Assembly (NCBI RefSeq): GCF_001186125.1
Contig: NW_014040523.1
Location: 1 to 54,347, forward strand
Direction of reading: 5' to 3'
Length of the DNA stretch: 54,347 nucleotides
DNA from: Sphaeroforma arctica JP610
Lineage: Eukaryota
The notes beneath the pieces were generated by a model. That model was given only the letters and a program-made list of their open reading frames with translations, had not been told where the DNA came from and ran no database searches. Made by a program: the position numbers and the translations under genes. Position 1 is the first letter of the stretch. Each line of letters begins with the position of its first letter. Shown one piece after another: positions 1,058 through 34,639 of this stretch.

Positions 1058-2308
1058 TCACGCCGTTTGTATCTTGTGTAGTTCTTGCATCGTCAGCATA
1101 TCTTGGAACGCGCTGAGGTTTTCGTACATGTCTGTATCTTCTATCTCGAACGAAGGAATGGTCTTCAAGGACGGTTTGTGCGAGAAAGTGGGATGAAGAA
1201 CAGTTGCGGTCGAAGATGGGTTGTTTAGCAAATCAGGTGCAGTGCTATAATGGCGGAGTGCAGGTTTTGCCAAGAATGTATGCTGCTTTGACTGATGGCT
1301 CTTCCCGTAAATTAAGCTTTGTATACTACCATAGTTGTACTCTTCACTGACTGGCTGGTGGTACACCCACAGCATTGGATTGAGAAAGTTCATGCCCATA
1401 TCATTCTGGCCGTGCCTTGGTCCAGAAGAAGTATGTGAATCTGAGACAAATGACTGGGACGACGAGCTGTATCCCGAGTCCCTGCCGCTTTCACTACTAG
1501 ACAGATCAGATCTAGAACTTCCAGGAGACAATTTCAGCGCCTCCGGTCCTACGCTTTCATCATCATTTGAGTGAGGTGAGACCATAGTACGTGGGGAAAC
1601 TTGACCGTCCAAAACATTACTTTCAGATTTGCTGCCGTGTAAATTTCGTATGGAAATGCTTCCAAGAGATAGCTTAGAAGCAGCGTGCCGTAAACTAGTA
1701 ATGCTTATACTATCACTCAATTTCCATTCCTTCTTGTCGCTACTTCTCGCCCTCAGATTCCTTGCGTTTGACACACTACCAGTAATCTTTGCCAGACGCA
1801 GTGGCACTGTATCTAACACGGCTAAGCCTTTTCTATTTTCATGGCCTCTATGCTCGCGCCATAAGCGATAGAATTCTTCTGCCGAACTGAAGGATTCGGG
1901 ATGACTTGTAAAATCTTCTAGCTTTCGCTGAGACAATCGCTCAGTACCTAAATGATCTTTGTTGTAAATACACGTTATTGGGCACGTACTGTCTATGGGT
2001 ACCTCAATCTGACGAGTCACCTTCGCACCCTTGAATTGTATATATGTGGTTGCAGTTTTTTTATACGCGCCACTAGATAATACATCATAGACTGCGCATC
2101 GTACGTATGCAAAGTCACGACGTTTTTTATCGTATATCATATTCGCAACCTCAAGGGGTTCGAATTGATTTGTGAATAACAATTCAGCTTTGAACTGTGT
2201 ATTTATCACAACGGCAGAATATTAATATAGCGAGCGACAACAGTAGATAAATAATTATTTCACAATTATTCCATGGCTCCGTGCTCTATGCATCGATACA
2301 CCGTTCAT
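1058..2308 (-). CDS. Uncharacterised host protein: ordered N-terminal ~140 aa followed by a Ser-rich low-complexity region; probably spliced
   Basis: Uninterrupted 383-codon frame at 1058-2209 with no TE motifs. A 3' acceptor (tacacAG|TTC AAA GCT) lies at 2195/2194. A possible 15-codon first exon at 2264-2308 (ATG AAC GGT...ATT|GTGAAA) would join in phase 0, but that exon is speculative. Confidence 0.55.
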
Positions 2309-4589: not shown

Positions 4590-5512
4590 CATAATGGCCA
4601 GCACAAACCCACTCACCCCTCTGACACAACCCGCCTGGGCCCACGACAAACCATCACTGCGCATCCCGTACAGTATCTATGCCCACCTGAAAAATGTATA
4701 CACAACCACGGAAGGGCGTACATCCGACCATAAAGCTCTGCGCCGACGATGTGACGATATCAGGAAAAACTAAACAAAATGCTGGTCCAACAAGAAGATC
4801 GCGGTAATAGCCCGGCCCCAATACTACTACCAACTGGTCATGGGTAACCCGCCAACCTTAAATCGGGGCAAAGCAAGACATAACAGCTTCAACCGCTGCT
4901 TCGAGCCTATACCAATCCGACTCTGTGCTATGAGTTGGAACATATACTTGCTTAACGAAGTAACTTTATTGTCATATTACATATTGGCTATATAGTATAA
5001 TAGTATAGTAATTGCCATGTGCCTTTTTTGGGATATTATTACAATTATTCTGCTAAAATATAAACCGTAATATATTTTAGACTTATAGGGTTTGAGGGTT
5101 TGAGTCTTATAAATTCGTCTCAACACTATGATTGTAAAAAACACGTACATGTTCACATTGCTCGACTGCCGCACCGACGGCTGTCTCTGCCCTGTCTGCC
5201 CTGTCTGTCGGCCACAAATTCACCACCAGCCACTTTGCGAATCATGGTAGGTCGGAAACTGTCTCCCATTGGCTCTGACCTCCTCCAGCAACTACAGAAG
5301 CACCACGACTTCCACGGTATCTGGACTCTCCACGAACACCTTGGATCCTTTCTCCAGCATGTAGAGCAACCTCCGTACCCACACCCATTTCTGACATATC
5401 AACAGATGTTTGTTCTCCATTTCCCGGCTAATCACGCTGTTGAAGTACTACTTTCAAATTTCGGTCTAAACCAAGTCATCGCGCCCCTTGGGTTTGCCTA
5501 TGATACTTCCAA
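4590..5512 (+). mobile_element. Non-LTR retrotransposon fragment (C-terminal ORF region), same family as 7319-10610, split by a Copia solo LTR
   Basis: Translates MASTNPLTPLTQPAWAHDKPSLRIPYSIYAHLK...IRLCAM|IV..TYMFTLLD...HDFHGIW...AYDTSN, collinear with the reverse complement of ~7745-8485. Contains stops and frameshifts. Confidence 0.92.
4933..5125 (-). mobile_element. Copia solo LTR (193 bp) with 5-bp TSD CTATG
   Basis: CTATG at 4928-4932 and 5126-5130; the uninterrupted LINE copy near 8145 has a single CTATG. The left ~60 bp match the Copia 5' LTR end at 31195-31255. Minus-strand termini are TGTTGAG...CCAAC(T). Confidence 0.93.
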
Positions 5513-5557
5513 TCAGCGTGTAAACAAATAAAGAAGCGTGTAAACAAATAAAGATAC

Positions 5558-5905: not shown

Positions 5906-6599
5906 ATATAAGAGGTTTTGCCCTTTTTAATAAGGCTACATTATGTGTCCTTCGCAAGCAAGGATATACACTGTTGTGTATGCGTTGTACCTTCACTAAC
6001 CATGGCAACTCGCGGTGATCAAGTTCTTTTTTTTTGTTAAAGAGTATATGTAACAACACTATATCTGCCACAAAATAATGAGCCGGTGTTGTTCCTGTAA
6101 CCAGATCGGCACACTCGTTCATTTGTGTTTATACCCCCTTAAGGTGGTACGGCTAATCATCAGCATCATCCGTTAATGCGTACATGACTGATATACTCTG
6201 TCAACTAAAGTTGCCAGCTTAAGGTGCGCAATCCCTTTTCGCTTAGCATCTTTAAGTGTGTCTACTACGTTCTGGTGCTTTAGCTTATGGTTATGCGTCA
6301 GTCAAACAAGGATATTTTTATCATTCTGCTCTTCCAGCATATAGGGTGTTGAGCATCCACTTGCGTGATCTCTAAGTCTGTGTAGTGTTTCCAGACTCTT
6401 GTCTTTCTTTTGTATGAGTGTCATGTGTGCGTTCATGTGCGTTTGATATACTTGACTTGTTTAATAGTCGCATTATATTTGCATATACTTCGGGAATATC
6501 TTTCATTAATTCCTTTAGAAACCTTTGAACTGCTTAACGTTCAATCTAGTGGAGAGTGGAATCTCCGATTCTTTGACCTTGTTAAGGAAGATCTCAGAA

Positions 6600-7030
6600 G
6601 GGGTCCATTTGGTTGTTCCAATGGGACCTATACGACATATTATAGTATGTCTCCAGGGCGTCTTCTGCACGGCTCGAGTACCCTAATATAGGAAAGTATC
6701 TACTTCCCTATCTAAATATATTGGCTCACATTGTATCATGCTTATTAATTTACTGAGCCATGGATCTTTGCTCCGTAATGGGCAACACAACATAATGGTA
6801 GCTTTGTGTATATGAACATAATTTAATATATGGGCAATTACCTGCCATGGTGGATTTGCCCACGCATTATGTTTGGAGAAATCTAGTTGAAAGGCATCTC
6901 TTAAAGGATGATTTAAAGTCCTATAATTATTTAGTTGTGCATTATGATGTGCAGCAAACATGTCAAATGTATGTGGCCTAAATATTTTTTGAGCCAATTC
7001 AAACCACCTGGGATTACATTTCCAGTCAGT
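6600..7030 (-). pseudogene. Dam-like DNA N6-adenine methyltransferase domain of Gypsy A pol
   Basis: DWKCNPRWFELAQKIFRPHTFDMFAAHHNAQL..Y...DAFQLDFSKHNAWANPPWQVI...LCCP...PW. NPPW at 6845-6856; directly downstream of and in frame with the RNase H end; one premature stop at 6683-6685. Confidence 0.85.
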
Positions 7031-7318
7031 GGCTAGTAACTCACGTACGGATTTATTAAAGTCCGGTACGAAGCGTGATAAAATATCCGGTAAGTGGTTA
7101 TGTATCCCTGGTAGATGTTAGATATCAAAATGAAACTTTGATGTCGTATCATGCCATCGACTCAGTAATTGTGTAGGAATACGGCCTCCGGTCAGTCTAA
7201 AATATCATGATCAAATGAGATAGCACATTGGTGTTTATTAGTATTTAAAATAATTTAATATAAGTTCCTTTTCCAATATTTCCAAAGAGTTCTGAATTCA
7301 CTTTGGTGGCTCCAATAG

Positions 7319-10300
7319 GGATAATATTATTTATTTCAAAGGAGTTAAGTTACAATGTTTGTACATATGGTATGGCTCTCATAGCCGTTGTAGTGGTTTG
7401 GGGAAGATCGATGGGAAGAAGTGGTCAGTAAATTCCCTGTTGAAGCTTGGACCAAGTGAGTCGACAATGGAGGATATGCGCTGGGTCAATTCAGGCCGGT
7501 GCTGACAAAAAAAACTGACACCATCGAGTGTGTCACGTATTCGCTTTCTGACCTACTAAATAGTGTACCCACCTCTGTGGTTCGGATCGGGTCTTTATCG
7601 TGTAGTGCTGTAGAATGGGTTAGTGCAGAGTACGAAAAGCCAAGTAGGACCAGGTTATCCGTCATAATTCGGTTGAGGAGCGAGGTTGGGGGTGAACCGA
7701 TGCCGCACCAGACCACGGATGCACTCGGTATGTGCTGGTTTGCCTGTATTGGAAGTATCATAGGCGGAACCAACAGGCGCGATGAATTGGTTTGGGCCGA
7801 AATTTGGAAGTAGTACTTCAACAGCGTGACTAGCCGGGGTATAGGAAACATCTGTTGATATGTCAGAGACGGGTGTGGGTACAGGGGTTGTTCTACATGC
7901 TGGAAAAAAATCCAAGGTGTTCGTGGAGGATCCAGATACCATGGAAGTCATGGCGCTCCTGTATTTGCTGGAGAAGATCAGGGCCAATGAGATGCAGTTC
8001 TAGGCCTACCAGGATGCATTGGATCAGTTGCTGGATGCAGGCAAAGTGGCTGGTGGTGAATTTTTGGCCACCGGGGCAGACAAGGAGAGACAGCCGTCAG
8101 TGCGGTAGTCGAGCAATGTGAACATGTACGTATTCCTTACAATCATAGCACAGAGCCGGATTGGTGTAGGCTCGAAGCAGAGGTTGAAGCTGTCGTGTCT
8201 GGCTTTGTCCCGATCTGAAGTTGGCGGTTTGTCCATGACCAATTGGTAGTAGTATTGACGCCGGGCCATAGCCGCGATCTCCTTGTTGGACCAGCGTTTC
8301 GTTGAATTCTTTCTAATGTCGTCACATCGTTGGCGGAGGGCTACATGGTCTGGTGTACGCCCGTCCATGGTTTTGTATACAGTCTTCAAGTGGGCATAGA
8401 TACTGTACGGGAAGCGCAGTGAGGGTTTGTCGTGGGCCCAAGCGGGTTGCGTCAGAAGGGTGAGTGGGTTTGTGCTGGCCATTGAGTCGAGTTGCATTCC
8501 CAGACAACCTCCGAGGTAGTCCGCGAATGCTTGCGTGGGGAGCAGACCACAAAAATGGAGTAAGTTGGTTTGATGTTTGGGAAACCTAGGGTATTTGGTG
8601 CCCGTGATGATGGCTGCTGCTCGAATGAGTGCTGAGTTATAGCGCTCAAACAAGGGGTCCATCGCATCCTTCCATATAGATGGAGCCCAGGCAATAATGT
8701 TCAGGCCATATGTAGCCGTGGATAAGATGAATGTTTTGAACAACACCAGCCTGTTGCGGGGGTGTCGCCAGCTGAAGCCATGGAAACCATAAGCGCGGAA
8801 GGAGGCGATACCCAGAGACAATACTGTAACCAGAGATTCCATATGTCTGGCGAGATTTATCCCTGGTATTCCGTGGGAGAGTGGGAACCCCAGGTATTTG
8901 GAGAGTTTAGGGTTGACATGTGTGGGAGCCATCTTCAGGGGTAAATGGCATGTGTTCCAAGGGGCATCTGCAAGCGTCGGCGTGATAAGCTCACCATTTA
9001 TACGGAGGGTTGGCGCCGCGTGTCGCAAGTTGGTAGATCGTACTCGGGGTTTGATGACACCCTGTTTGAGGCCAGATTTGCGTCCCCAAGCATCAATGTC
9101 GTCTAAAAAGGGCTGGAGCGGAACCGGTTGGGGGGCTTGGATCCGTGTGTCGTCGACAAATAAATAAAAGCGGAGGAGCTTGGGCCGGAATTTTGCTAGT
9201 GTGACAGCCAAAGAATCCATGTAGATAATAAAGAGCTGGGGGCCAACGATTGAGCCTTGTAGGATGCCATTTGTTCTATGAAATAGATCCAAGAGCATGC
9301 CGCGGTATGTCACTCGAGTAGAGACCCTCTCAAATAGCGCACGGAGGCAGTTGATCCAGTTTTCGGGCATTCCAGCGTGGCGCAAGAGTACCCACAGGCG
9401 CGGGAGAGCAACCTTGTCGTATGCCTTGAGAATGTCCAGACAGACGTCGTTCCACTCCTCTTCCGACTGTGTCTCAGATCCCATGGCGGCGAGTGCTTGG
9501 GTATGGCAGGAGTATCGTGATTTGAAGCCAGCTTGAGTTGCGTTGGTAGCAGAGCCGGGGTGGCTAGTAATCAGCTTGAGGAAACACTTCTCAAATATGC
9601 GTCTGACTTTTTGCGTTAGCGTGATAGGGCGGAAGTCGGCGGGGGAGGTGATATCTGTATCGGCCTTTTTTGGGTGCGCTGTCAGGAGAGTGCAGTTCAG
9701 GGCGGTAGGGAAGGTACCCGCCTTTAGTAGCTCAGTGAATGCTTCGGCAAGGAGTCTAATCAGTGGGCTATTGGTGTTCGGGCGTCCTAGTGTCCTGTGT
9801 TCGGTGGAACGCTCTACTGCGGCCTTCAGAAGGAGGATGTGGATTCCGTCAGGGCCAGGCCCCTTATTGGGATAGCGTAGTATAGCCTTCATTACATCGT
9901 CTGGGCGTACGGCGGGAGTTACATCTGGCGAGGGTTCGGTATCCGGTGGAACAACGTACGGATTCGTGGAGCTGAATAGGTCCTCAAAATAGCCAGTGAG
10001 AGTGGCGCCTGTGTCGTCGGCACCCGGTATGTAGGGTTGGCGTGGAGATCGTCGTTGGTACGCAATATCTTGGAACATTTGGGTATTGCTTTGGGCGGTC
10101 AGACGTGGGCGGAACGAGTGGTTTGGTACCCAAGGTTTATTTATGTCGTAGTAGAATCCCCCAAAGATTTGTGGGTTAGCGGCATAGCGCCAGATGCGGT
10201 CGAGAATCCGTTGCAAGCCTTCCGCTGGACCAAGCAAGGTGAGATACGGCCGTAGTAGGTTCTGATACACCCGGATTTCGGCTTGGAATAGTCGTGCGCG

Positions 10301-10610
10301 GGATTTGTTGCGTAAGTGATAAAGTCGATGGCGATATCGGTTATATCCATGAGAGGGAAGGCGTTGGTCCGGAGGCGGCGGCATTGTTGGCATTTGTTGG
10401 AGCCGATGGATGTATTCCGTTGTAAGTACCTGGAGATCAAGCCCAAAGGTGTGGTCACCATAGATGCTGTAGTCCGTCAGCTTATAGGTCTGGAGGGAGG
10501 CGGAAGTCGAGGGCCGGTGATACGCATGTTCTGTACCAGTTGAGCCGCCAGCATAGAGATAGTCCAAGTGCCACGTGTTATTTAGGGTAGCTAAAACCCT
10601 ATAAAAAAAA
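7319..10610 (-). mobile_element. 5'-truncated non-LTR (LINE-like) retrotransposon with 9-bp TSD CTCCAATAG
   Basis: CTCCAATAG at 7310-7318 and 10611-10619; a single copy occurs in the intact LTR near 42230. Encodes the APE C-terminus, RT and a Cys/His knuckle, and has a ~340-nt 3' UTR. Confidence 0.93.
8024..10575 (-). CDS. Non-LTR ORF2-like protein: partial AP endonuclease plus reverse transcriptase
   Basis: HLDY...YGDH (APE C-terminal motifs), PGPDGI, FRPITL, QAGF, LDILKAYDKV, GILQGS, LFVDD, KYLG. A frameshift near 8085 hides a C-x-C...H-x-x-C knuckle, and coding likeness continues to ~7655. The ORF-track start at 10642 lies in the flanking LTR and is not the real start. Confidence 0.9.
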
Positions 10611-11410
10611 CTCCAATAGCCTGAGTATTTGGTATGACTCATATACTTGAACCTATTTGAGACGATAGTAGATGTAGGATATTATAGACTAAATCTTATA
10701 ATCTCTGAACTACTACTTACAGGTTTTGGTCTTCCCGCCAATCTCCAAAATCCAATAAGTCTTTTTCTTTTTTAACTTTTCTCCAGATGGAACTTTATTT
10801 ATATTAGCTAATGAATTAACTTGATTTACGTTCTTTGTCTATCTACAGATTAGACATGTGGTCAGGAACACTGTACTTCTAGTGAAAATTATTCAACAAA
10901 GAACACCTACAGGTACGTCCTGTGTGATCGAGGATATTAAGGCTCTTACCAAGAGGCAGTCCCGATTATTCTTACACAAGCTACCACTGCTAAATCCTAA
11001 CTGACTTAAATTGTAACTTAGTTTATAGAACATAGTTCAAAACATAGAAATATCTATCGAAGTTTACAATTGAGTGTCTGGCTTCATCTCCTTTATTTAT
11101 TAAAGGGACTTCTGGTCACACATCAGCGTAAAAGCTGACCCGTATAAGTAATCCGGAAGTGTGTTAAGGCTGCTACTATGGTTAGTAGCTCTTTCTTCAC
11201 TGTTGGATAATTCAACTGCGATGCATTCATTGCTCGGCTAACGAATTGTATATACCTAGGTTTACTATCTATAACCTAGTATAGTACGCTTCCGAGTGCT
11301 AATTCTGATGTGTCCGTTGCTATTTCAAAAGGCACGCCATTGACTGGTCCTAGTACAACAGGGGCTTGTTGGACTGCGCGCTTGAACGCTTTAAGTGTGT
11401 CATCACACTC

Positions 11411-12724
11411 TTAGGTCCATAAGTCTCCTAGTTTACCTTTATGACATCTTAAGTGTCCAAGAGGTTTTAGATAATCAGCTAAGAGTGGTACTCCAAGAGA
11501 GAAGAAGTTTACAAATCCACACATGCTGTTTACATCTCTTCCTGTAGTTGGTGTTCGCCGATCTAACAGGTGTTCCACCTTACCGGGGTCGATCTTATTA
11601 CCTTCCCCAGATATACGATAGCCTAAGAGCTGTATTTCGCTCATTGCGAAGTGACATTTCTTCTCGTTAATCTTGAAGTTTTGCTCGTTGAGTCTCTGAA
11701 TGACTCGTCTGACTAATGCAGCATGTTCACCCTTAGTCTTTGAAAAGTTGACTATGTCATCTATGTAGACTTGCATATTAGGCATGTCTGCAAACATTTC
11801 TTCCATTACTTGTTGGAAGAATGCTGGTAAAGAGTGCAACCCGAAAGGTGCACCTCTAAACCTGTATTGTTTACCCTTCCAAGTAAAAATAAAGTACTTA
11901 CGATGGAGTTTGTAAATTTGCATTTGATGATACCCCTGTGTTAGGTCTATGGTTGTAAACACCGTAGCACCTTCCATTCGTCTCAGTAACTCGTTTATAC
12001 GAAGGAGATGTAAACTATGAGTCGGCAATAATTTATTTATTGGGCTCATATCCAGACATACTCTGACTTTCTTAAATGTTCCGTCAGAGTTGTGTTGATC
12101 AACTGCCAGCAGTGCTAAGTTTACTGGCGTTTGTTGGTAATTGATTTCGATTACCCCATCGGCTAACCATTTCTCCACTTGTTCTTTAACTACAGCCTCA
12201 TGTCTCCAAGAAACATAGTTTCTTGAAGAGCATTTGATCTTAGTGAAATCTACCTTGGTTAAGTCGAGGCTGACGTATCCGTCATTAAAGCGGAATTTCG
12301 CCCAGTCAGTTATCTTTATCTTCTTATTTACTAATATAAGTTCCATTATTATATCGGCAAAGCCAGGAATTAATTCCTTGACTGTGTCCGATAGTGGTGT
12401 ATATGGTTTCAGACAATTATCGTCTGATTGATCCTTTAATGGATCTATGTTGTTGGGAATACCTGTTACGGTTATCCCTAACGTGAGCAAATCGCTCATT
12501 CCAACTATAATGTCGTACTTCTGTGTCATCTTAACGATCACAGCTTGAGTCGTGATATTTATATCATCAGCCAGGGAGATTTTAACATCTGTGGCCATGG
12601 TATCACACTTGGAAGTTTTATCATCTGCTAAAATAAGGTGAGTAGTTTGAGTTGGCCTTTCAATGCCTTTCATTAATGCAAAGCGGTCGGATATACATGA
12701 AATTTCTGAACCAGGATCAATCAA
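11411..12724 (-). CDS. Gypsy A aspartic protease plus reverse transcriptase (pol fragment)
   Basis: 437-codon open frame with DPGS, RVCLD, PFGL and YIDD motifs. Confidence 0.9.
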   Translation of the reverse strand: MIDPGSEISCISDRFALMKGIERPTQTTHLILADDKTSKCDTMATDVKISLADDINITTQAVIVKMTQKYDIIVGMSDLLTLGITVTGIPNNIDPLKDQSDDNCLKPYTPLSDTVKELIPGFADIIMELILVNKKIKITDWAKFRFNDGYVSLDLTKVDFTKIKCSSRNYVSWRHEAVVKEQVEKWLADGVIEINYQQTPVNLALLAVDQHNSDGTFKKVRVCLDMSPINKLLPTHSLHLLRINELLRRMEGATVFTTIDLTQGYHQMQIYKLHRKYFIFTWKGKQYRFRGAPFGLHSLPAFFQQVMEEMFADMPNMQVYIDDIVNFSKTKGEHAALVRRVIQRLNEQNFKINEKKCHFAMSEIQLLGYRISGEGNKIDPGKVEHLLDRRTPTTGRDVNSMCGFVNFFSLGVPLLADYLKPLGHLRCHKGKLGDLWT

Positions 12725-12849
12725 TGCAAGGACTTCATTTCCGTTGCAATATACAGGGATTATTACACACTCATCTAAGGAGTTGTTGTATTTTCTTTGT
12801 AACGATTGTACCTGGTAGTACTTTCACTCCAACTTAATGTCGGGCTTTT

Positions 12850-15079
12850 TGTCACAAGACTTGGCGTGATAGCCATTGGTCATCTCACACTTGTCACACT
12901 TCGAAAGGAAGTGTGTACAGTTGGGTGTATGTCTTCCATTCCAATAATCGTTAGAGGTTAATTGGTACATGTCATATCCACACTGTGCGTCGGCACATTT
13001 CTTAATCTCCTTATAGGGAGGTTCCTTGTCCTTCGGCTCCGCGCGAACCCGCTTAGTGGGTCGCGTTGGCTGAGCAGCGTCGCGAGTGCGTGTCTGATTA
13101 GGAGGCGTCTGATGAGGTTTATCATCCGACGTCTGTCGTGAGAGATATCCTTGATCAGGGAGCTCGCGTGATTACTTATTCATCACCTTCCCATCGAGGT
13201 TATTCGGTGCGCGGAGTAAAGAGTGGATACAATGTCATAAACCTGTTCCCACTTAAGTCGAGACAGATGGAACTTTGTTTCATGTCCCTTGTCTCGGACC
13301 TCAGTTGCGTACTTACGTCGCAACTCAGTGTACAGACTCTCTCGGTCGTTGTTCCCTATGTTCTTGCAGAACACATGCATAGCCAGGAACTCGTACCATT
13401 TCTGAGCTTTGTTCTTTGTTATATCAGGACGCTTCAGATCTGCATCAAGTTTCAGAATGTAACTCTGAATGGGAGTGTTCTCGACTGGTTCAGTTAGAAT
13501 TGAGCTCAGTCCAGGATCACGCATATCCTTGCTTAATAAGAACGTTACTAAGCAGCACACAGCTGGCCAGTCACTACATGTGTCTAGCTGATGCTGATGT
13601 CGCTGCAGGATCAAATAACTTGTTCCTGTAGGATCAAATGACTGCATTAAAGCAGCAATCCATTGCTGGGGAGCGATATCATTTGTCTCCAGCATGACCG
13701 TAAACGTATTTCGCGTACGGGTTAGCTTGTCGAGGTCATGTTTATTTATAACTCGATCTGCTTGCTGTTGGCATCCCAGTTCGACTTAAGTCGACTGATC
13801 TGTCTCTTGTATTTCTGGTTGTCCCGGTGCACTTGTCCACGTTGGGCATGAAGTAGCTGATCGATGCGCTTCTGCTTGATCGCAATCATATTAGCAAAAT
13901 ATAATACATCGTCCGTCTGGTGATTGGTATCGGCGATTTCCATCTTTTTGGTGTAAACGTCGACCGCTTTATTAAGTTTGGTCACCTCATCAAAGTGGAA
14001 ATCCTCTACGGGTTGGTGTATGACGGTGCGATCGAAGCGATTAAATTCGACGTCGTTATCACGTCTACTAGGGTGTTTATTACCCCGTGTAAAGTCCATG
14101 GTCGAGGCCTTTCGGTGCTCTGTTCCTGGGATAGGTGTTGGCCTTATAAGTTCGGGAGGTAACTCCGTGTGGACGACATATCCAGTCTTAACTGGTTTAT
14201 GACGTGGACGGTCCCCCCAACTGGGTAAAGGTGGTGGAGTGTTTTTACCTGCCTCTGGGTCTATAATACCCTCAAGGACAGGCGACTCATGGCCTGGCGA
14301 AAGAACAGCCGAATAATTAGCCTGGACTTCTGGTGGCAGGTCCTCGTAAGGTATAGATACGCTGAGCACATATGGGTCAACTGACACAGGTTTGGCGCTC
14401 AGGTCCATTCGCTTTTCGGGCGACATTGACTGCTGACGTTCTGTCCACTTCTGTAGGGCTTTAGTAATGCCCGGAGAAACATGCTCGCGTAAGCGCTGTG
14501 CTTGCTTTCCTGATTCATACGTTCGATCTACATATTCAACAGACATGCTTTTCATAAGAGCGGCTAACTGATTCTTAAGATCAGTGTTTTCAGTCATTAA
14601 CTTACATATGCGCGTTGGCTCAGTGGTCTCGGACGAAGATTTGGGTTTGCCACTTGAGCTTGCCTCCTCTTCTGGTTCCGGTGTAGTACCTTCTGAGATT
14701 CGTCTTTGTCCCTTATAATTGGGAACTTTTCTGTCTGGGTTTCATCAGAAGAATTGGTTGGGGCGTCGTGAGACGTGTCCCTTGTCTCACTTCTTCGCTT
14801 CGGAAATGCGTACTTCGAAATTGAGGCAATCATTGGTCCTCGGGCCCTTTCGGCAGGAGTAGTCTCCTTAATCGGAGTGGCTACATCCTTATCCGAAGCA
14901 TTGTTCTGACTATTATTGCCAGAGACAAGTGCTTCGGCTACGGTGCGGTTAAACCCATCGGCAGCATCCGCGATTGCTTCTGCGGCAGCAGTAGCTGCGG
15001 CGGCACTAGCAGCTTCTCTCTCAATCTTCTTGCGTTCGGCCTTGCGTTTCTTTGCAGGTGTATTGTCTTTCTTTGTCAT
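12850..15079 (-). pseudogene. Gypsy A gag region (fragmented)
   Basis: Consecutive minus-strand ORFs 14597-15079, 13746-14597 and 13183-13695 upstream of a CX2CX5HX3C knuckle and the protease. Confidence 0.7.
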
Positions 15080-15207
15080 AATACTTAAGTTATAACTTCA
15101 GTCTATTCTCTTTAGGGAATAACTGCGCTTAGGAAAAAAAATCGTGGTAGTTATCTACCTTTACGTTTAAGTAGTCTAAGTAGTTAATACCTTTGCTAAC
15201 TTTAAAA

Positions 15208-15770
15208 TGTGTAAGTTTCGGTCTATCAAGGCGATAATAACGCCTTATAGTAAATAAACGCTTAGGTTAAGGCTAAGTATACCAAAACTTAAAAGTAAAT
15301 AAACGAAAGGAGTCTTTTAGCAAAGTTAGGTATGCCTCGTGAAAACAGCAATACTCTGAGGAATTGTAGGGCTGAGACATTGTCTATATATAATCCTCTC
15401 AGTACTGTTTTCGCCGAAGGGATTTTATTTAGTGTTTCGTCGTCGCTCTATAAACTATGGTATGTTTCGTTGGGGCGAATCCGAGAGACTCATAAAATCC
15501 TATGTTTAGAGGAAGAAAAAAGAAGAAGAAAAAACTCTTGATGTCCATAGTTATTGCATTAACCAATAACTTGCCACTTATCAAGAATTACCAACTAGCC
15601 TTCATCAGATTGACACATCTGGTTGGCTGAACGGAGGATAAACGAAGCAACGCTAATAGTCCTTAGAAACCTATGTTCGGTTGAGCCATCTTGCTACCGA
15701 AGTATTCGGATATAAATAGATTTGGAAAGTAAAATATAGTTATATTAATAGAAATAGTCCAAATCTTACA
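15208..15770 (-). repeat. Putative 5' LTR of Gypsy A
   Basis: Minus-strand TGTAAGATTT...CTTACACA followed by TTTT, as in Gypsy B; TATA-like motif at ~15386. No partner LTR is present to confirm the boundaries. Confidence 0.45.
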
Positions 15771-16299
15771 TTTGGTATTTCACGGGGGCCTTTTAATGGC
15801 CTTGTCCAAATTCTGATTATGTAAAATGGAAAAGGTATTTAATTATTGAAACCGTTAAACCCCATTTAAGGAAAACTAAGTTTACGTACTTTTAAGAGTA
15901 CGTTTATATTACAAGATTCTAATGTGGAGGCCCGGCTTCTACAGAAGGGGGAGGCGGTGTTGGTGGTGGTCGACCAGTCGGGCGTTGTGCACGTTGTGTG
16001 CGTAAGTGTGTAGCGATGTTACGGCTAGTGGGTCTAGAGGAAGGAGGGCTGGTGTCGAGCCAGGAGGGAAGGGAGATAAATCAAAGCAGGGCGGATGGCG
16101 GTGGGCAACGATCGGGTGGAGCTCTCCTGAAGGTATATACGATGTTTTGGGGTGGGGGGGGAGCGGGGTTTCGGATGCATAGCCGAGATAGTAGACACGG
16201 TATAGTGTGTTGGTAATGTGTGTATGATTGTTGTCGAAATTGTGTGCTAGGGTCGGGGATGGTGGTGAGTGTGTGAGATGTATGCTTAGAGTGGGCGGG

Positions 16300-19240: not shown

Positions 19241-19399
19241 GGAGACTGACGTCGATGGCAGTTTGGAGTGCGGCAGGGATGGGTACGGCGTGAGCCGGAG
19301 GACCGAAGATGGCGACACCAGTGTAGAGCCAGTTGGGAGCGGTGACAAAGTCCTGAGTGCCGTCGGGCTGGCGTCGGAGAAATGTATGGGGAGCGGAGG

Positions 19400-19740
19400 G
19401 GGTGATTTAGTTTGGGCCACCAAGCTGCCTTGGGGTTCGAGCTTGGCGGTACCGCGTGGGAAGTCCTTCCAAGGAAGGTTGCCGTAGAGGCGCTTCGTGG
19501 GTTGGCGGTACCGCGTGGGAAGTCCTTCCAAGGAAGGTTGCCGTAGAGGCGCTTCGTGGGTTGGCGCCAGTTCTGTTTGTATGCGTCATGAAGGGAAGTG
19601 GCTTTGCCTTTGTGGTCAATGGTGCAGTAGGTAGGAGCTTGGCGTTTGTGCTTAGTAGCGAACATGTCGATATCAACGGGGCCAAAGACTTGCGTGACGT
19701 GTTTGTCAAATAGTGTGGGGTGAAGCTGGTATTCGTCGCA
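19400..19740 (-). pseudogene. Dam-like DNA N6-adenine methyltransferase domain within Copia A pol
   Basis: DEYQLHPTLFDKHVTQVFGPVDIDMFATKHKRQAPTYCT...DAYKQNW...LYGNLPW (AAC CTT CCT TGG, one substitution from NPPW, 19528-19539), then ...AAWWPKL in a shifted frame. Confidence 0.8.
19443..19566. repeat. Exact 59-bp tandem duplication
   Basis: Units start at 19443 and 19502, with ttggcg repeated again at 19561. Confidence 0.95.
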
Positions 19741-20041: not shown

Positions 20042-20366
20042 TGTAGCATCTAGGGACCAGATTGTCAAAAAGCCAATACAAATCCTAAAACTCAGAATCA
20101 TCAAATACTGAGTTTTGGAATTAGGATTGGAATATTTCCGATATTAGAGTCATGAGAAATATTATTGGTAGAACCGGTAAGATATACCGGGACTCCCGCG
20201 TGTGAGAGAAACACTCAAGTAAATCCTGAGTCTAGTGAAAACACAAATAAAGACTCAGTTCGGTTCTCTCCGACTAGGACTTTTCCTAGCTGAGATAAAC
20301 GTACTTGAGAAGAGGTCTATTGTATCCTATTGTCTCATACCTTTCAGATATTCTCCATACTCTACA
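20042..20366 (+). repeat. Gypsy B 5' LTR (325 bp)
   Basis: TG...CA direct repeat of 28347-28671; about 20 mismatches by hand count. Confidence 0.96.
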
Positions 20367-20477
20367 TTTTTTACAATATCCTTACTTAGAATAAGTCAAA
20401 TAACATACACTCGAAAGGAAGAATGAGTGGGAATACAGGGAGTCTTAATCCTTACACATAAGGAGAGACTCCAGATA

Positions 20478-20546
20478 AAGAGGCCCCAACAAGTGAAGAG
20501 GCCCCAACAAGAGAAGGCCCCAACAAGTGAAGAGGCCTTAACAAGC
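20478..20546 (+). repeat. Short ~16-19-bp tandem repeat (GAGGCCCCAACAAG core) in the Gypsy B leader
   Basis: Four units visible, plus a degenerate one at ~20628. Confidence 0.8.
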
Positions 20547-22295
20547 AAACCAGAAGAGAAGCTCGAACCGCAGAAGGAAAGGGCACTGAAGAACTGTGAT
20601 ACCAGGAGGAGCAGTTAGTTGGAAACAGAGGACCCCAACAAGAAGACCGCTACAAGAATTATGACTCGGTATAGAAGAACGAATAAGGCAACAAACTCGT
20701 GCTACAACAGTAGCGTGCTGAAGTGTAAGGTGTTAAATCATTTGTGATGATAATAGTGTGCCATAGAGAGTTTACGAGACTGGCGTAGGGCAAAACCAGT
20801 GAAAATTCAAAAGCTGTCAAGGTGATTGAATAATCAAAGCTAATTATTTTCTAGGATTTTCAGACAAGAAAACACCTTGACAGAAGATTCACAAAAAGGG
20901 CACTACCTAACCTCACTCACTCGAGGCTCCTGGACAAAAGATTAAGAAGCATAGCACGCATTTTCCACCACACCCAACAGACAAGCATCAAGCAAATCAA
21001 TAGATAACTGAAATCTTCAGTATGTACAAAGATTATAAGAAGCAAACACAATACAGGTGGCATAACAAGAAAAAGCAATACAAATGGCATAACATTACAC
21101 AAGAGTTACACATAACGATCATGATCTAAATTCATACAAATCGAAGATCAGAGAGACATCAAATTTCAAATCGAAGAAACATCAAATCATACGCGTAGAC
21201 AGCCATAGTATTATCACACAATATTATGATCTAAAATATTCTAATAACCAGACCAACCAATATTATTGAGCGACAAACAACACACATAATATAATACTAG
21301 TCGCAACACATAAGAAATCAGGATAATACGTAGACACGCGAGGTAAGAAAGAACAGCGCATACTGGCAAGGAACGTTTAGTACCCAAGACAATTGCAAGA
21401 CAACAGTATACAGCTACAGAAAGAAAGCGCAATTTGACAAACACTACAACGAACTCTATAAAAACAAGAAATTGCACAGACACCAACATTTCGAGGTATT
21501 GATCACACAGAGCCCATAAAGGCTCATGCACAACGACACAATTGCAGTAGCACTAGATGAACATACATAAATGTTTATAAAACACATACTCTACGACGCA
21601 GTCGCGCTAGAACATACATAAACATGTATACACAAACATGAACTAAGTGCAAAACTAGGCAATCACGAGAGATCAATAAGGGATCACAGAGGATGTCACA
21701 ATTAAGACAAAAACACAACACATACATGAACCACAAAAGGTAAATAAATGTCAGGCTAGCTAATTAAGCAATATAGAGCCAAAGAGTACATACAACACAA
21801 CCGTCACAAGGGGACACATTATAATAAAACTGTAAATCCACCAGTAGATTCAAGGACACATCTATTGATAAGAGAGGCTATAAGAAACGCTAAGACTAGC
21901 CACTCTGGCACAATTAGTCAAGAAGCATAGATTTTATTACAACAACAAACACTCAGCAATCAGCAATCACATTGAAAAAAGATACAACCCCTATTTCTTT
22001 CATGACTAGCCACTCAGGCAAGCATAGTCAAACATTACCAGAATCACACAACACATGCGATCAGCATCGTCACTGATTCAATACAAAGCACATTGCGAAG
22101 ACAATAAGCGATAACAAGCAATCCTAAGTGAAATCGAGAGACACAAATCAACGAACACAGGACATACACAACACACGCAGGCGTTCATTAGAACAAACAG
22201 TGTGAAGAAATACAAGGACACAAGTAGTCGCATAAATTAAAGGACTCTGACACGATCATAGTGCTAAGGAACGAACATCAAGTGTGGACTAGCGC

Positions 22296-22450
22296 ACACA
22301 TAGTTCGGCACAAAACCCGAACCGACCGGTGACGCCAATAGCGACACACTTCGGTACCGGATACAGTTTGGTACAGGACACACTCCGGTACAAGACGCAG
22401 TTCGGTACAGGACACAGTTCGGTACAGGACACAGTTCGGTACAGGACCAA
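22296..22450 (+). repeat. 17-bp tandem repeat (CGGTACAGGACACAGTT) in the Gypsy B leader
   Basis: About six units at 22345-22450 and degenerate ones upstream. Confidence 0.85.
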
Positions 22451-22459
22451 ACTGCTAGA

Positions 22460-22840
22460 GTGACGTCACTAGGACCGAACATCTCACTGAGAACACACAT
22501 GAGGAATTATTTTCTCATATGACGGAATAAGTATAAGTGACGTCACATATGACAAATAAGCTTTACTAACAGGCACCATTTTCAAACCCTATAAATATAG
22601 GGGACGAAGCAACAAGCTACCGGGCCATACAGCACGGTAAACACTTCCAGCGGAAGTGCAGCAAAGTAACGACACTAAAATAGTAAGTAAAACAAATCAA
22701 AGTTTTATTTTATATATAAAAATTATTACTAAAGACGGGGGGGGGGGGGGGGGTGAAGCGCGCGCTTTCGCACAAAATATAACCAGAGTCTTTATTAATA
22801 ATTCACTAACACCCACACACCACGCAGACAACTGAAAATG
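22460..22840 (+). promoter_or_regulatory. Putative internal promoter and 5'-UTR intron upstream of Gypsy B gag
   Basis: Two GTGACGTCAC (CRE) palindromes at 22460 and 22537; TATAAATA at 22590; GTAAGT at 22683; branch point CACTAAC at 22804; acceptor CGCAG ending 22827; ATG at 22838. Confidence 0.55.
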
Positions 22841-24255
22841 CCAACAGCAACCAGAACAAGCGTGTACGGTGGGAGGAAATGTAGTGAAGGCGCGGGTGAC
22901 GTGGGAGTTAGCCCAATGGGGGAAGCAAGCCCAGGCAGTAGCTCGGGCCAGCCTACTCCGGCGGGGGTACCCATCTTAGCCTCAGCAGTCTAGAAATATA
23001 CAAGAGTATCTGTCAAGGCAATCATGTCTTTGTGAGTCGGTTTGTGTCCAAGTTGGAGCAGACAGCACCTGTGCCCATACCAACTCTGCACATGGTGAGG
23101 GTAGGCATATATTATCAACAGCCAGAGCGCTGTATGCCACTAGTGGATGCGAAGCTCAGACGACGATATGACCAAGCGATCAACGATTGTGTTGATGATG
23201 AGGAAGACAAACTCATCCAGATCAGTCTGTACATCAGTGAGCTATAGCTCATGCGTTCACGTTTAGGCGATCAGTTAAACGAACCATCTCTTAAGAAATT
23301 GTTTAAGACTTCTGAATTTCCTAAGATGCTTAAGGTAAATTTATTTAGAATGGAAACTGTGAAGATATCATAGAGTTCAGTACACAGTGTAGTGATCTGT
23401 TCTTAGCTAAGTCAATGCCTCTGTGTCAGTACCCAGCACTAGTGCGAAGCCTTTTGGATTCCACTGAAGCAACGGAGAAGACCAAATCAGTACTCAACAA
23501 TATGAGAGATTCTGAGACACACACATCCAGGCACTTCACCGATCCGGAGCAGTTCAATAGAATCATTATTGACCGACAGTAGACTATCTATTGGAGAAGT
23601 TTCTCAATGACATGCAGAATAAGAAGATGAACGTCGAAGTGTGCACAGAGCGTGTGCACAAGACAAGGCGATGTTGGAAGAGCGTTACCGCATCTCAGAC
23701 AAGCAACCCATATACTTACAAATCCTCAAAGTACAAAGGTACCTAGCACTTAAGTACTATGTATTGCAATCAGTTGTGGATACTCTCATTAAGGGAGACA
23801 GGCAACCGGGTGGGAGTGAAGGACACTTGTCCAACATGGACCACGCCAAGCTTCATACTATGACTGAGACACACATAAGAACAGTGGCTGTGACACAAGC
23901 AGAGCGTATATTGAGGGATCAGGTGCGAACAGCAAACAAGCGCAATAACGCACAGACGAACACGCAGGTTGAGGATAACTCTACGAATGCTAACAAATGG
24001 CACAAGCCAGACAATGGTACATACAACCATAACAAGCAAGGAGGGCATACACAGAAGAAGAAGGGGGCACGTGAAGAGTGTGCATGCCCCTACTGCTTGG
24101 CAATGCCATCCCCACATCGATTCAGTGAATGTCCCAACAAGAAAGCAAATCAAGCCAAGAAGGCTGAGGAGCAAGCCAAGAAAGATGTGAAGATAGCAAG
24201 ACTGTCCATTACGTCTGGCAATGTGGAAGACATCACCGAAGGTGATGAGCACTGA
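22838..24255 (+). pseudogene. Gypsy B gag
   Basis: Broken reading frames ending in ORF 23641-24255, which has a CX2CX6HX4C knuckle, upstream of the protease. Confidence 0.7.
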
Positions 24256-24389
24256 AAGCACTGGTGGGCGGATGCAAACACGATTGACCTGGCTGACAGA
24301 CTCAATGTATTTACAGATGAAGAAACGTTGTTAGTAAATGCAAATGATATAAATTACCAACCTTTATCTTTACTTCCCGCACCACGAGA

Positions 24390-26100
24390 CTAACGTTTAC
24401 ACATTGACATACAAATTAATGGTAATACATACAATGCACTAGTAGACTCGGGTGCACAACGCTCATGCATGGACAAAAGTGTAGTATCATAATTATATCT
24501 TTCTGTTAGAGCGCAACCGGGGTACATACAACTAGCACAAACAGATGCACGAATACAACGCACGGGATCAACAGAAGTTTGTGACATTAAATATGGAGGT
24601 AGAAAAACCTCTGTGGTTTGAAGTATTGGACTTACCTGAAAAGAAGACACCAATACTTATAGGTATGTACATCCTAGCATGCATAGGTATATACATAGCA
24701 GGATAAATCAATCCACAAATACCAACAGATGTAAAATGGGAATCGCTTTCACAGCACATGAAGAGGTCCCAGGGCATGAACAAGAAGGTCTCAGGTAGTC
24801 ACTTACAGACCTCCTGATATTCATTGCAACCTACCAGGCTCCATAGTCACAGTACCTGCAAATAAAATCAACGTCAGGCAAATGAGGCATGCTAAAAAAT
24901 ACATTCCGCAAACGGATGAGAATGTGCAACGATGACTTAAAGATGGCCACATATATATACGTGATAAGTCCACAACGGTAAACTTGCCGTTGTTATCAAC
25001 AGGTGAACATGACCAAACAGGTCTACTCAAGAAAGTCAAGACATGTCTAGACTTACGTGAGACCAATTATCAATATGAACAGGACAAGTCTGTGTTACCA
25101 AAGATAAAGGAAGTGATACACATCCTACAAGGAGCACAGTTCTTTTCAAAGCCAGATTTTACAGGAGGATTTCATCACTTTCTAGTAGATGAAGCAAGCC
25201 AACACTTCTTCACATTCTCGTGGAGAGGAGCGCAAAACTCATTCAAGTTCTCGCCGTTTGGACTACACTCACTCAAAGCACAATTCCAGAGAGTCATGGC
25301 TGCTCATAGATATCAAAGGAGTGCAAGTGTATGTAGATGACATAGTCATTGCGAGTCTTACAGAAGAAGAACACCGCAAGACAGTTCGTGAAGTAATCAA
25401 GCGACTGAATAGTGCAAACTTCCGACTCAATCACAAGAAGTGTGCCATTGCGGTCAAAGTGGACAACATTCTTGGGGTGAAAGTCGCCACACAGGGACTC
25501 AAAACAGACTCCGAGAAACATAAAGAATGATGGATTGGCCACTACCCAGAACAAAAGAGATCTGTACAAAGTAGTTGGACTAGCAAATTACATGCGAGAC
25601 CATGTCCCCAACTTTGCTCACACCACGAAACACTTTCGGAACCTAATGAAAAGTAAAATGAACCAGAATATATACATGTTATGGACTCCGGAACTAATCA
25701 GGAAGTGGGAAGAACTCAAAGAAGCAATCGCATGTTCAGCGACGCTAGCATATCCTCTTGATGGGGTACCGTTTCAAATTATGAACGATGATAGTGACTA
25801 TGGCATAGAAGGGTGTTTATTTCAAGTCATCGATAGAGTTAGAAGAGACATTCTCTACTTCTCAAAAAGCTTGAATCCAGCACAACAACGCTATGGCACA
25901 AATACCAAAGAGCTACTAGCGCTGGTATACAGCCTGTAACATTTCTCCGAATACATCAAAGGGGGGGACATAACACTGTGGACAGATCACAAGAGTCAAG
26001 AGACGTTACACCCAATGCTAGCCAAGTGGACAGCAAAAACGTTCCACCACCGCAAGGACAACCAGATGGCAGATATGTTGTCACGTCTCCATGAAGATAC
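24390..26100 (+). pseudogene. Gypsy B protease-RT-RNase H
   Basis: ALVDSGA, KTCLDLR, DFTGGFHH, SPFGL, YVDDI, DDSDYG, KELLALV, WTDHK, NQMADMLSR; many frameshifts. Confidence 0.92.
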
Positions 26101-26209
26101 TTTTAGTACTAAAGAGTCAAAGGTATTAAAACAGGCAAATGAGGCAACACATAATAGCCAAGAGTACACCACCTTGGAAACGAACATGCCCATAACCATA
26201 TCGGCCATA

Positions 26210-26606
26210 GACTGGATGTTACATTCCAGATTCTATCAAGAAGTGGAACGAAGGTTTGAGAAGTTCACAGTAGTCTGTTTGCATCGGCACACAATGCGCA
26301 CACAGATAAACACTACACCAAAGAACAGAATGCGCTACAACAAAAGTGGGCGCAGGAAGTCAATGCATGGGCGAATCCACCATGGGAACTCATACCTGAT
26401 GTCCTTGACAAAGTCATTGCAGAGGCAACCAGCATCACGATATGTGTACCATATTACCCCAATGCCTCGTGGTTTCCAAAGTTCTTGACTTTACTAGAAG
26501 AAGACCCGATGTCAGTGGAAAACACAAGCAATACGTTTTTCAGAGAGGGCAAGAGGGCTTGCGGCAAGACCCCATGGGGTGTCACGTTAGTCACAAAGAT
26601 AGGAGC
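26210..26606 (+). pseudogene. Dam-like DNA N6-adenine methyltransferase domain of Gypsy B pol
   Basis: DWMLHSRFYQEVERRF.../LFASAHNAH...NALQQKW...NAWANPPWELIPDVLDKV...ICVPYYPNASWFPKF...GKTPWGVTLVTKIG. NPPW at 26374-26385; one frameshift before LFAS. Confidence 0.87.
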
Positions 26607-26729
26607 TAAGTCTCCATACTTTGACTCAACGCGGGAACAACCTGCTATACACGTTGCAGCGTCAGAACCAGTTCACTCTGGAGAAACACCACAGGCAACA
26701 GAATATGAGACACATGTCAACATCATTTA

Positions 26730-28032: not shown

Positions 28033-28346
28033 AAGCATGCTCCCCCCACACACCAGATGGACAAGGACCAGAGACTCGGTTGCAGAGCCACCGCTGAGAT
28101 GCATTTTCTTAAGCCAAGTTGGGATCAACCGAGAGCACCGGTCAAGACTGACTCCGATGATCGTTGTAGAGGACTCCTGCTATAGTATAAATTTAATTAA
28201 TCGGTAATATATAATAGATTACGGTGTCAGGTTTTTCATCTTATGCCCCCTAAGGGACAAGATAAACACCAACCTCTAGACAATCTAGTACTGTTAGATG
28301 TCACTTTATACTCCTACGCAGGCTAAGAAGCATAAAGTTGGGGGGC

Positions 28347-28671
28347 TGTAACATCTAGGGACCAGAGTATCAAAAAGCCAATACAAATCCCAGAACCCAG
28401 AATCATCAAATACTGAGTTTTGGAATTAGGATTGTAATATTTCTGTTATTAGAGTCATCAGAAATATTATTGGTAGAACCGGTAATATATACCGGGACTC
28501 CCGCGAGTGAGAGAAACACTCAAGTAAATCCTGAGTCTAGTGAAAACACAAATAAAGACTCAGTTCGGTTCTCTCCGACTAGAACTTTTCCTAGATGAGA
28601 TAACCGTACTTGAGAAGAGGGATATTGTATCCTATTGTCTCGTACCTTTCAGCTACTCTCCATACTCTACA
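28347..28671 (+). repeat. Gypsy B 3' LTR (325 bp)
   Basis: Direct repeat of 20042-20366, preceded by a PPT. Confidence 0.96.
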
Positions 28672-34638: not shown

Positions 34639-34639
34639 A

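What the first reader, a model, noticed from the sequence alone, without database searches (positions are those of the whole stretch)
6600..7130. Gypsy A has the best-preserved RH-MT junction, with both DMFA and NPPW motifs
Seen: HLPGIHNHLPDILSRFVPDFNKSVRELLATDWKCNPRWF...FDMFAAHHNAQL...DAFQLD...WANPPW reads in one frame. This mirrors the DIRS RH-MT junction (HIPG..N..AD.LSR...DW.L). The family is distinct from B in LTR and gag. Inference: the domain is an ancestral, conserved part of pol and may have been acquired by recombination with a DIRS element at the RNase H end.
Basis: partly seen in the sequence, partly recalled or inferred. Interest (0 to 1): 0.7.

Follow-up and report, generated by a model that had tools for sequence, protein, structure and literature searches.

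The report
Dead Gypsy retrotransposon with Dam-like domain
This is a broken copy of a Gypsy-type jumping gene that carries a well-conserved adenine-methyltransferase domain right after its RNase H, a design described in a 2026 preprint, and its RNase H is Gypsy-type to the end, so it shows no sign of a crossover with a DIRS element there.

Summary
Observation confirmed: window 6683-7117 (minus strand) is one 144-codon frame from the RNase H end through DMFA and NPPW. The domain folds like phage N6-adenine methyltransferases (pLDDT 95) and was under purifying selection. This copy is dead: stops flank the frame, a 3.9-kb nested insertion splits RNase H, and integrase is partly deleted.

It is a DAM-LTR Ty3/Gypsy element (bioRxiv, May 2026), and its nearest named relatives are Abeoforma proteins. 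The scan met this architecture before on other genomes.

'Ancestral part of pol' is supported for its clade. 'Recombination with DIRS at the RNase H end' is not. The shared motif is also in 81 of 112 methyltransferase-free relatives. A's RNase H scores Gypsy-like in all four quarters. Its linker is 15 residues, against 5-11 in DIRS.

The domain groups with DIRS against phages (100/100), but the donor direction is unresolved. Most Gypsy versions lack a 7-residue loop found in 38 of 38 DIRS proteins, as phages do, whereas PCIF1 has it.

In passing: a Copia element here carries the same domain inside its integrase zinc finger, which the preprint's main text does not mention.

The parts
15365..15943 (-). 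Likely 5' LTR of Gypsy A (TGTAG...CTACA ends like those of B and C); no second copy in the window, so the 3' LTR is missing
   Evidence: termini seen; depth rises about 4-15-fold at 15312-15665 in 3 of 4 runs, and is also high in the fourth; inference
12824..15097 (-). gag-like region in four stop-to-stop frames; no Pfam match
   Evidence: three of the four frames scanned; position-based inference
11411..12823 (-). Aspartic protease and reverse transcriptase (YIDD)
   Evidence: Pfam Asp_protease_2 E 5e-5, RVT_1 E 4e-26; 62% identity to P0001
11069..11341 (-). RNase H, first part; stops and one frameshift
   Evidence: tblastn to P0001/P0002
7172..11068 (+). Inserted solo LTR of family B (TG...CA, 4-bp target duplication) splitting RNase H; itself split by a non-LTR RT element (about 7319-10610, ORF 8024-10681, 9-bp duplication)
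   Evidence: 91-92% identity to the B LTR; termini and duplications; empty-site joint 7166-11068 in 4 of 4 runs
7073..7171 (-). RNase H, last part, ending HLPGIHNHLPDILSR; stop at 7118-7120
   Evidence: Gypsy-type by profile score and tree
7028..7072 (-). 15-residue linker between RNase H and methyltransferase, beginning with Gypsy-type FVP
6629..7030 (-). N6-adenine methyltransferase-fold domain (PF05869 Dam-like): DW at 7022-7027, DMFA 6953-6964, NPPW 6845-6856; premature stop at 6683-6685
5925..6179 (-). Integrase remnant; about 670 nt of pol (zinc finger and core start) missing between 6548 and 6179
   Evidence: 48% identity to P0001 residues 1091-1174

Best explanation
This is a dead copy of a Ty3/Gypsy LTR retrotransposon whose pol reads protease-RT-RNase H-methyltransferase-integrase, with a Gypsy-type RNase H and an inherited, conserved methyltransferase-fold domain that in active copies likely marks the element's own new DNA with 6-methyladenine. 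Shown: the domain order (intact in relatives P0001 and P0002), the fold, the NPPW catalytic motif, purifying selection, inheritance across the clade, and that no part of RNase H is DIRS-like. Inferred: the domain was added as a module downstream of RNase H, in the RNase H-integrase linker, not by a crossover inside RNase H (about 80%). It shares ancestry with the DIRS domain (about 90%), and DIRS was most likely the donor (about 55%). Inferred from the preprint's model and untested here: the enzyme is packaged with RT, methylates adenines of the cDNA or RNA-DNA hybrid, and the host AMT1 enzyme would keep the mark after integration, favouring transcription (about 50%).
For: Intact relatives: P0001 (68% identity over the query) and P0002 carry RT, RNase H, Dam and integrase in one ORF. 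Nearest named relatives are Abeoforma whisleri proteins P0005, P0121, P0122. RT clade of 10 DAM-bearing rows at 100 (FastTree). RNase H: DIRS 100/100 apart from all 37 Gypsy rows including A. Profile scores for A +56, +46, +44, +24 bits by quarter and +8.6 for the last 20 columns; leave-one-out controls +15.9+-7.6 for 108 DAM-less Gypsy and -8.6+-6.3 for 38 DIRS. P before the conserved D in 79 of 105 DAM-less Gypsy, 1 of 38 DIRS, and A. Linker 5-11 aa in 37 of 38 DIRS measured, 15-94 aa in 19 DAM-Gypsy. The domain sits at other places too: before RT in P0174, before a Copia RT in P0187, inside a Copia zinc finger in this window. Model pLDDT 95; best viral matches are phage N6-adenine methyltransferases, TM 0.72-0.77. 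A vs B: pN 0.18 and pS 0.84 over 85 codons of the catalytic half, against pN 0.27 for RT. 16 of 32 majority differences from this copy are synonymous, against 21% expected (p 0.0003, or 0.014 against 30%). Both stops are private to this copy. Preprint main text: more 6mA and expression on DAM-LTRs in two ichthyosporeans.
Against: No activity is shown: the preprint's E. coli assay was negative. Iyer et al. call DIRS domains likely inactive (passage). The intact B-family relative P0002 has CPPW instead of NPPW. The closest solved structure is the RNA cap methyltransferase PCIF1 (Z 10.5, rmsd 3.2, 136 aligned), above T4 Dam (Z 7.6). The last-20-column score has limited power: 2 of 38 DIRS score above zero, the highest +8.7, equal to A. 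An old crossover overwritten by later Gypsy-Gypsy recombination cannot be excluded. Among 10 non-sister DAM-Gypsy proteins, RT and methyltransferase distances do not correlate (r 0.20, p 0.15). The host is not identified, so AMT1 presence is untested.
Confidence: 0.72

Rival explanations
1. One reading: a Gypsy RT switched template onto a DIRS RNA within the shared HxPG..N...D.LSR motif, so the RNase H end and everything up to integrase came from DIRS.
For: The same order RNase H-methyltransferase occurs in DIRS (passage of PMC3783388). The domains group together against phages, 100/100. The A/B family has the shortest linker (15 aa) of 19 DAM-Gypsy proteins. Several DAM-Gypsy lineages use this slot.
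Against: The motif is generic (81 of 112 DAM-less relatives). Residues before and after SR are Gypsy-type: hydrophobic-hydrophobic-P/S after SR in 38 of 105 DAM-less Gypsy, 0 of 38 DIRS, and in A. No DIRS linker reaches 15 aa. The domain also sits at non-RNase H positions.
Confidence: 0.12
2. Reverse or parallel origin: LTR elements took the domain from a phage-like gene before, or independently of, the DIRS form, and DIRS either received it from them or is a sister lineage.
For: Loop after N.QL: 9 residues in 70 of 70 motif-bearing phage loci (of 82) and 15 of 15 diverse phage proteins (12 new); 9 in 11 of 13 proteins of A's clade (12 in the A/B family); 16 in 38 of 38 DIRS. Of 154 domains, 22 have 9 and none of those has a DIRS-type short linker; all 93 with a short linker have 15-18. 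Two of three careful trees put the phage root on the side of A's clade (95/71, not starred). DIRS monophyly is not rejected (p-AU 0.41 and 0.45).
Against: Human PCIF1 has the long DIRS-type loop (alignment, E 0.16), so the long loop may be the ancestral eukaryotic state. Short-loop P0187 and P0205 nest among DIRS (96/94), so the loop can apparently be lost again, or long branches attract. The tree with only A's clade, DIRS and phages puts A's clade inside a DIRS polytomy, with DIRS monophyletic in 2% of bootstrap trees. The preprint, with 10,030 proteins, infers DIRS-to-LTR transfers. My DIRS sample is the top 150 of 745 hits to one query, and the domain has only about 130 columns.
Confidence: 0.25
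3. The domain is not a DNA methylase: like its structural neighbour PCIF1 it would bind or methylate the element's RNA, or act as a non-catalytic nucleic-acid-binding module of the polyprotein.
For: Top PDB match PCIF1. 10 of 61 aligned members also hit Pfam PCIF1_WW. Iyer et al. place DIRS domains in the PCIF1 clade. Negative E. coli DNA assay. Motif variants FPPF (13), HPPF (5) and CPPW (2) among 154 domains.
Against: NPP[WFY] is kept in 119 of 154 domains. Phage DNA N6-methyltransferase models match better (TM 0.72-0.77, E 1e-6 to 1e-8) than PCIF1 (TM 0.65-0.69). 6mA is enriched on DAM-LTR DNA in the preprint.
Confidence: 0.35

Closest known systems
DAM-LTR retrotransposons, ichthyosporean lineage (Fernandez-Moreno et al., bioRxiv 10.64898/2026.05.21.726589; whole main text read, figures and supplements not seen)
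   Same: Ty3/Gypsy RT, PF05869 domain in pol, nearest named relatives from Abeoforma whisleri (a species the paper lists), NPP triplet kept, no detectable chromodomain in the A/B family.
   Different: This copy is dead. The main text has no breakpoint or RNase H analysis and never mentions Copia (0 hits for 'copia', 'RNase H', 'recombination', 'breakpoint'). It says the lineage lacks chromodomains, yet P0005, P0124, P0038, P0131 and window element C score 18-22 bits on a chromodomain profile. My sample does not resolve the DIRS-to-LTR direction.
DIRS1-like retrotransposons (RT-RNase H-methyltransferase ORF plus tyrosine recombinase; passages of PMC3783388)
   Same: Homologous methyltransferase domain directly after RNase H; one clade against phages.
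   Different: A has a protease, a DDE integrase remnant, Gypsy RT and RNase H, a longer linker (15 vs 5-11 aa) and lacks the 16-residue loop.
Phage N6-adenine methyltransferases of Pfam PF05869 (e.g. Edwardsiella phage eiAU)
   Same: Same compact fold (TM 0.72-0.77), D.AA/D.FA and NPP[YW] motifs, short loop.
   Different: Only 13-20% identity in the top structural matches; best tblastn E 0.04 in 50,697 phage records; free-standing genes.
PCIF1/CAPAM cap-specific adenosine methyltransferase
   Same: Best solved-structure match (Z 10.5, rmsd 3.2, 136 aligned); placed in one clade with DIRS domains by Iyer et al. 2016 (passages).
   Different: 13-16% identity; cellular RNA enzyme with WW and helical domains; has the long loop.

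Membership tests
DAM-LTR (Ty3/Gypsy with DAM) | Ty3/Gypsy-type RT | tested here: met
   RVT_1 E 4e-26; inside the Gypsy side of the RT tree, DIRS apart at 95
DAM-LTR (Ty3/Gypsy with DAM) | PF05869 DAM domain in pol with NPP motif | tested here: met
   E 9e-6 passes the preprint's 1e-5 threshold, just under Pfam's curated cut-off
DAM-LTR (Ty3/Gypsy with DAM) | Protease and DDE integrase, no tyrosine recombinase | tested here: met
   protease, integrase remnant, rve in intact P0001/P0002; no recombinase family among 41 window frames scanned
DAM-LTR (Ty3/Gypsy with DAM) | Paired LTRs with target-site duplication | tested here: inconclusive
   one LTR-like end at 15365-15943; the 3' end is deleted
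DAM-LTR, ichthyosporean lineage | Methyltransferase and RT group with Abeoforma/Sphaeroforma/Pirum elements | tested here: met
   with Abeoforma P0005 in the RT clade (100) and with P0005, P0121, P0122 in the methyltransferase clade (100/99); weaker when other Gypsy domains are added; no Sphaeroforma or Pirum sequences held
DAM-LTR, ichthyosporean lineage | Ichthyosporean host encoding AMT1; 6mA on insertions | not testable with these tools
   no genome held; organism names coded; no methylation data
DIRS1-like retrotransposon | DIRS-type RT and RNase H | tested here: not met
DIRS1-like retrotransposon | No protease or DDE integrase; tyrosine recombinase instead | tested here: not met
DIRS1-like retrotransposon | Methyltransferase 5-11 aa after RNase H with the 16-residue loop (feature derived here) | tested here: not met
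   15 aa and 12 residues in A
N6-adenine methyltransferase (active enzyme) | Rossmann-type fold with [DNSH]PP[YFW] motif | tested here: met
   motif definition from a passage of PMC4738411
N6-adenine methyltransferase (active enzyme) | Methyl transfer to adenine | not testable with these tools
   the preprint's heterologous assay was negative

The most novel reading that the evidence does not exclude
The methyltransferase entered LTR retrotransposons from a phage-like gene before or apart from DIRS, and this Gypsy clade keeps the phage-type short loop. The published DIRS-to-Gypsy direction would then be reversed. The domain would be a portable module that even Copia elements take up, here inside the integrase zinc finger.
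Probability: 0.2. Interest if true: 0.6.

Novelty: new member of a known kind. Interest (0 to 1): 0.27.

Why it matters
The architecture itself is published, so this copy adds little. Two side results matter to specialists. First, the junction gives a negative answer on how the domain was captured: not by a crossover in the shared RNase H motif. Second, the 7-residue loop that separates DIRS from most LTR and phage versions is a simple marker for testing the direction of transfer, which the preprint infers from trees alone. If the Copia case holds in intact copies, DAM capture extends to a second LTR superfamily and a new insertion site, which would strengthen the view that these genomes select for the domain itself.

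Tried and rejected
No whole genome was held, so copy number, intact copies and AMT1 could not be checked directly. No RNA holder was listed; two guessed-RNA runs laid nothing and one guessed-RNA run of another organism label laid 23 contigs, which I do not use as evidence on expression. Folding P0123 without an alignment failed (pLDDT 37). A viral-contig scan with alignment A1 was not possible, and the scan with P0134 gave one 16-residue match that I ignored. The search for intact relatives of the Copia domain found none among 137 candidates (weak evidence); the Atlas returned unnamed clusters and gag_pre-integrase/rve clusters at 0.91-0.92. Atlas hits for A's domain were mostly unnamed eukaryotic clusters, one with Dam in 11% of members. 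A single origin of all Gypsy domains was neither shown nor rejected (p-AU 0.35). The loop as a clean polarity marker was considered and downgraded after the PCIF1 control. Campylobacter phage hit L002 is a different methyltransferase type and was left out of the trees. Rows dropped: P0174 from the RNase H test; P0125 (a repeat protein with no domain hit); long or partial rows (winD, winCopia, P0205, P0017, P0036, P0246) and part of the DIRS set from the trees. The N-terminal A-vs-B comparison (39 codons, pN 0.30, pS 0.53) is affected by B's deletion and was not relied on.

Full report
Observation. The quoted peptide is exactly the stop-to-stop frame at 6683-7117 on the minus strand. It hits Pfam Dam PF05869 at E 9e-6, 25.9 bits, just under the curated cut-off of 28.1, and scores 130 bits over nearly the whole length of a profile built from its relatives. 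The motif pair occurs once in the window and never in 200 shuffles.

Anatomy of the copy. On the minus strand: a likely 5' LTR (15365-15943), gag-like frames, protease and RT (11411-12823), RNase H, the methyltransferase-fold domain and an integrase remnant. RNase H is split by a solo LTR of family B (7172-11068, 4-bp duplication) that holds a non-LTR element. Contigs that skip this insertion occur in 4 of 4 runs laid. There are stops at 7118-7120 and 6683-6685, and about 670 nt of integrase and the 3' LTR are missing. At both stop sites nearly all depth in run X2 carries another letter, so they are private to this copy. A has the best-preserved methyltransferase of the four Gypsy copies, but B has the better-preserved RNase H side.

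Relatives. Two intact polyproteins, P0001 (68% to the query) and P0002 (B family), have RT, RNase H, Dam and integrase in one ORF. A full scan gave 745 hits, of which I received the best 150. The nearest named ones are Abeoforma whisleri proteins.

RT. In a 168-row FastTree, A and nine DAM-bearing proteins, including Abeoforma P0005 and the C-family protein P0132, form a clade at 100. The 38 rows I call DIRS stand apart at 95. The DIRS label rests on this tree and on the RT-RNase H-methyltransferase ORF; their recombinase genes could not be checked.

RNase H and the junction. The end motif is matched by 87 of 120 proteins, 81 of them among the 112 without the domain, so it does not point to DIRS. 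Against profiles of 108 DAM-less Gypsy and 38 DIRS proteins, A scores +56, +46, +44 and +24 bits by quarter. All 108 Gypsy controls are positive and all 38 DIRS controls negative in every quarter. For the last 20 columns A scores +8.6; controls give +15.9+-7.6 and -8.6+-6.3, and 2 of 38 DIRS are positive, up to +8.7. P before the conserved D occurs in 79 of 105 Gypsy, 1 of 38 DIRS and A; a hydrophobic-hydrophobic-P/S triplet after SR occurs in 38 of 105 Gypsy, 0 of 38 DIRS and A. Linkers are 5-11 aa in 37 of 38 DIRS measured and 15-94 aa in 19 DAM-Gypsy proteins, with A's family at 15. The RNase H tree separates 20 DIRS from 37 Gypsy rows at 100/100. The join therefore lies downstream of RNase H. 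An old crossover erased later cannot be excluded.

Methyltransferase. Phage matches by sequence are weak (best E 0.04). A's clade is 100/99 in the 60-row tree but unresolved when other Gypsy domains are added. RT and methyltransferase distances correlate within the clade (r 0.66, p 0.002, 9 proteins) but not among 10 non-sister proteins (r 0.20, p 0.15). Direction is open: two trees place the phage root next to A's clade and one nests it in a DIRS polytomy. AU tests reject neither DIRS monophyly (0.41, 0.45) nor a single Gypsy origin (0.35).

A loop difference bears on this. It is 16 residues in 38 of 38 DIRS, 9 in 70 of 70 motif-bearing phage loci (of 82) and 15 of 15 diverse phage proteins, 9 in 11 of 13 proteins of A's clade and 12 in the A/B family. 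Of 154 domains, none of the 22 with 9 residues has a DIRS-type linker. Against reading this as polarity: human PCIF1 has the long loop (weak alignment, E 0.16), and two short-loop rows nest among DIRS.

Selection and structure. Between A and B the catalytic half shows pN 0.18 and pS 0.84 over 85 codons; RT shows 0.27 and 0.73 over 201. Of 32 majority differences from this copy in run X2 (from 40 rows shown of 49, stop sites left out), 16 are synonymous, against 21% expected. The model has pLDDT 95. The best viral matches are phage N6-adenine methyltransferases (TM 0.72-0.77). The best solved structure is PCIF1 (Z 10.5, rmsd 3.2, 136 aligned), ahead of T4 Dam (Z 7.6).

Mechanism. Shown: position, fold, motif, constraint and inheritance. 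Inferred, following the preprint's model: the domain travels with RT, methylates the element's cDNA or hybrid, and the host AMT1 enzyme would maintain the mark (about 50%). The rival is an RNA-directed or non-catalytic role (about 35%). This copy cannot make the protein.

What is known. Fernandez-Moreno et al. (bioRxiv 10.64898/2026.05.21.726589; whole main text read; figures and supplements not seen) describe DAM-LTRs, an ichthyosporean lineage, at least four DIRS-to-LTR transfers, 6mA enrichment and a negative E. coli assay. Passages only: PMC3783388 (DIRS layout), PMC4738411 (DIRS domain in the PCIF1 clade, likely inactive), PMC5890265, PMC6338049. Searches for a Copia-borne adenine methyltransferase listed 0, 2 and 7 papers, none on this subject by title and abstract start; the preprint's main text has no 'copia'; the library lacks most subscription journals. 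The scan's own notes list the architecture on six windows of other genomes and nothing for the Copia case or this genome.

Verdict. Real, correctly read, a new member of a recently described kind. The proposed recombination at the RNase H end is not supported; shared ancestry with DIRS is; the direction is open. Interest 0.27.

Noticed in passing
window 19393-19737 (minus), in a Copia element spanning about 4934-31254: A Ty1/Copia element (RVT_2 E 5e-42) carries the same methyltransferase domain (45.7 bits, E 2e-15) between the HH (LHHARFGH) and the CC (CVSC) of its integrase zinc finger. The motif is NLPW and the domain is broken by a 59-nt duplication and a deletion. No intact relative was found. 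Not mentioned in the preprint's main text. This is the most interesting lead in the window.
   Followed up: partly
protein P0187 (JGI/IMG, 522 aa): A second Copia-type protein with Dam (E 6e-11) directly before RVT_2, a different position from the window's Copia.
   Followed up: partly
proteins P0174 and P0254: Gypsy polyprotein with an exonuclease/endonuclease/phosphatase domain followed by Dam, upstream of RT (P0174); P0254 has the same two-domain pair.
   Followed up: partly
window 27541-28032 (+), and P0005, P0038, P0124, P0131, P0201: Diverged chromodomains (13-22 bits on a profile from 76 of 111 DAM-less Gypsy; 8 shuffles at most 1.5) in members of the clade that the preprint describes as lacking them; not detectable in P0001, P0002 or element B.
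   Followed up: partly
window 4934-31254: Nested insertions: Gypsy A and Gypsy C (20042-28671, 4-bp duplication) sit inside the Copia; a B solo LTR sits in A, and a non-LTR element in that LTR. All five LTR elements with this region of pol recognisable (A, B, C, D, the Copia) carry the domain.
   Followed up: yes
window 33690-34650 (minus): Fourth Gypsy remnant (D) with the second half of the domain (NPPR motif) followed by integrase.
   Followed up: partly
window 8024-10681 (minus); fragments at 4593-5513 and 31312-31641: 885-aa RT ORF of a non-LTR element with no Pfam endonuclease match; family not determined.
   Followed up: no
window 31941-32528 (minus): RNase H-like end of a second Copia element (read from the translation; no Pfam hit).
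   Followed up: no
window 1058-2221 (minus): 387-aa serine-rich frame with no Pfam match; possibly a host exon.
   Followed up: no
window 34590-36062 (+): Three frames of 142-228 aa with no Pfam match; possibly gag-like parts of another element.
   Followed up: no
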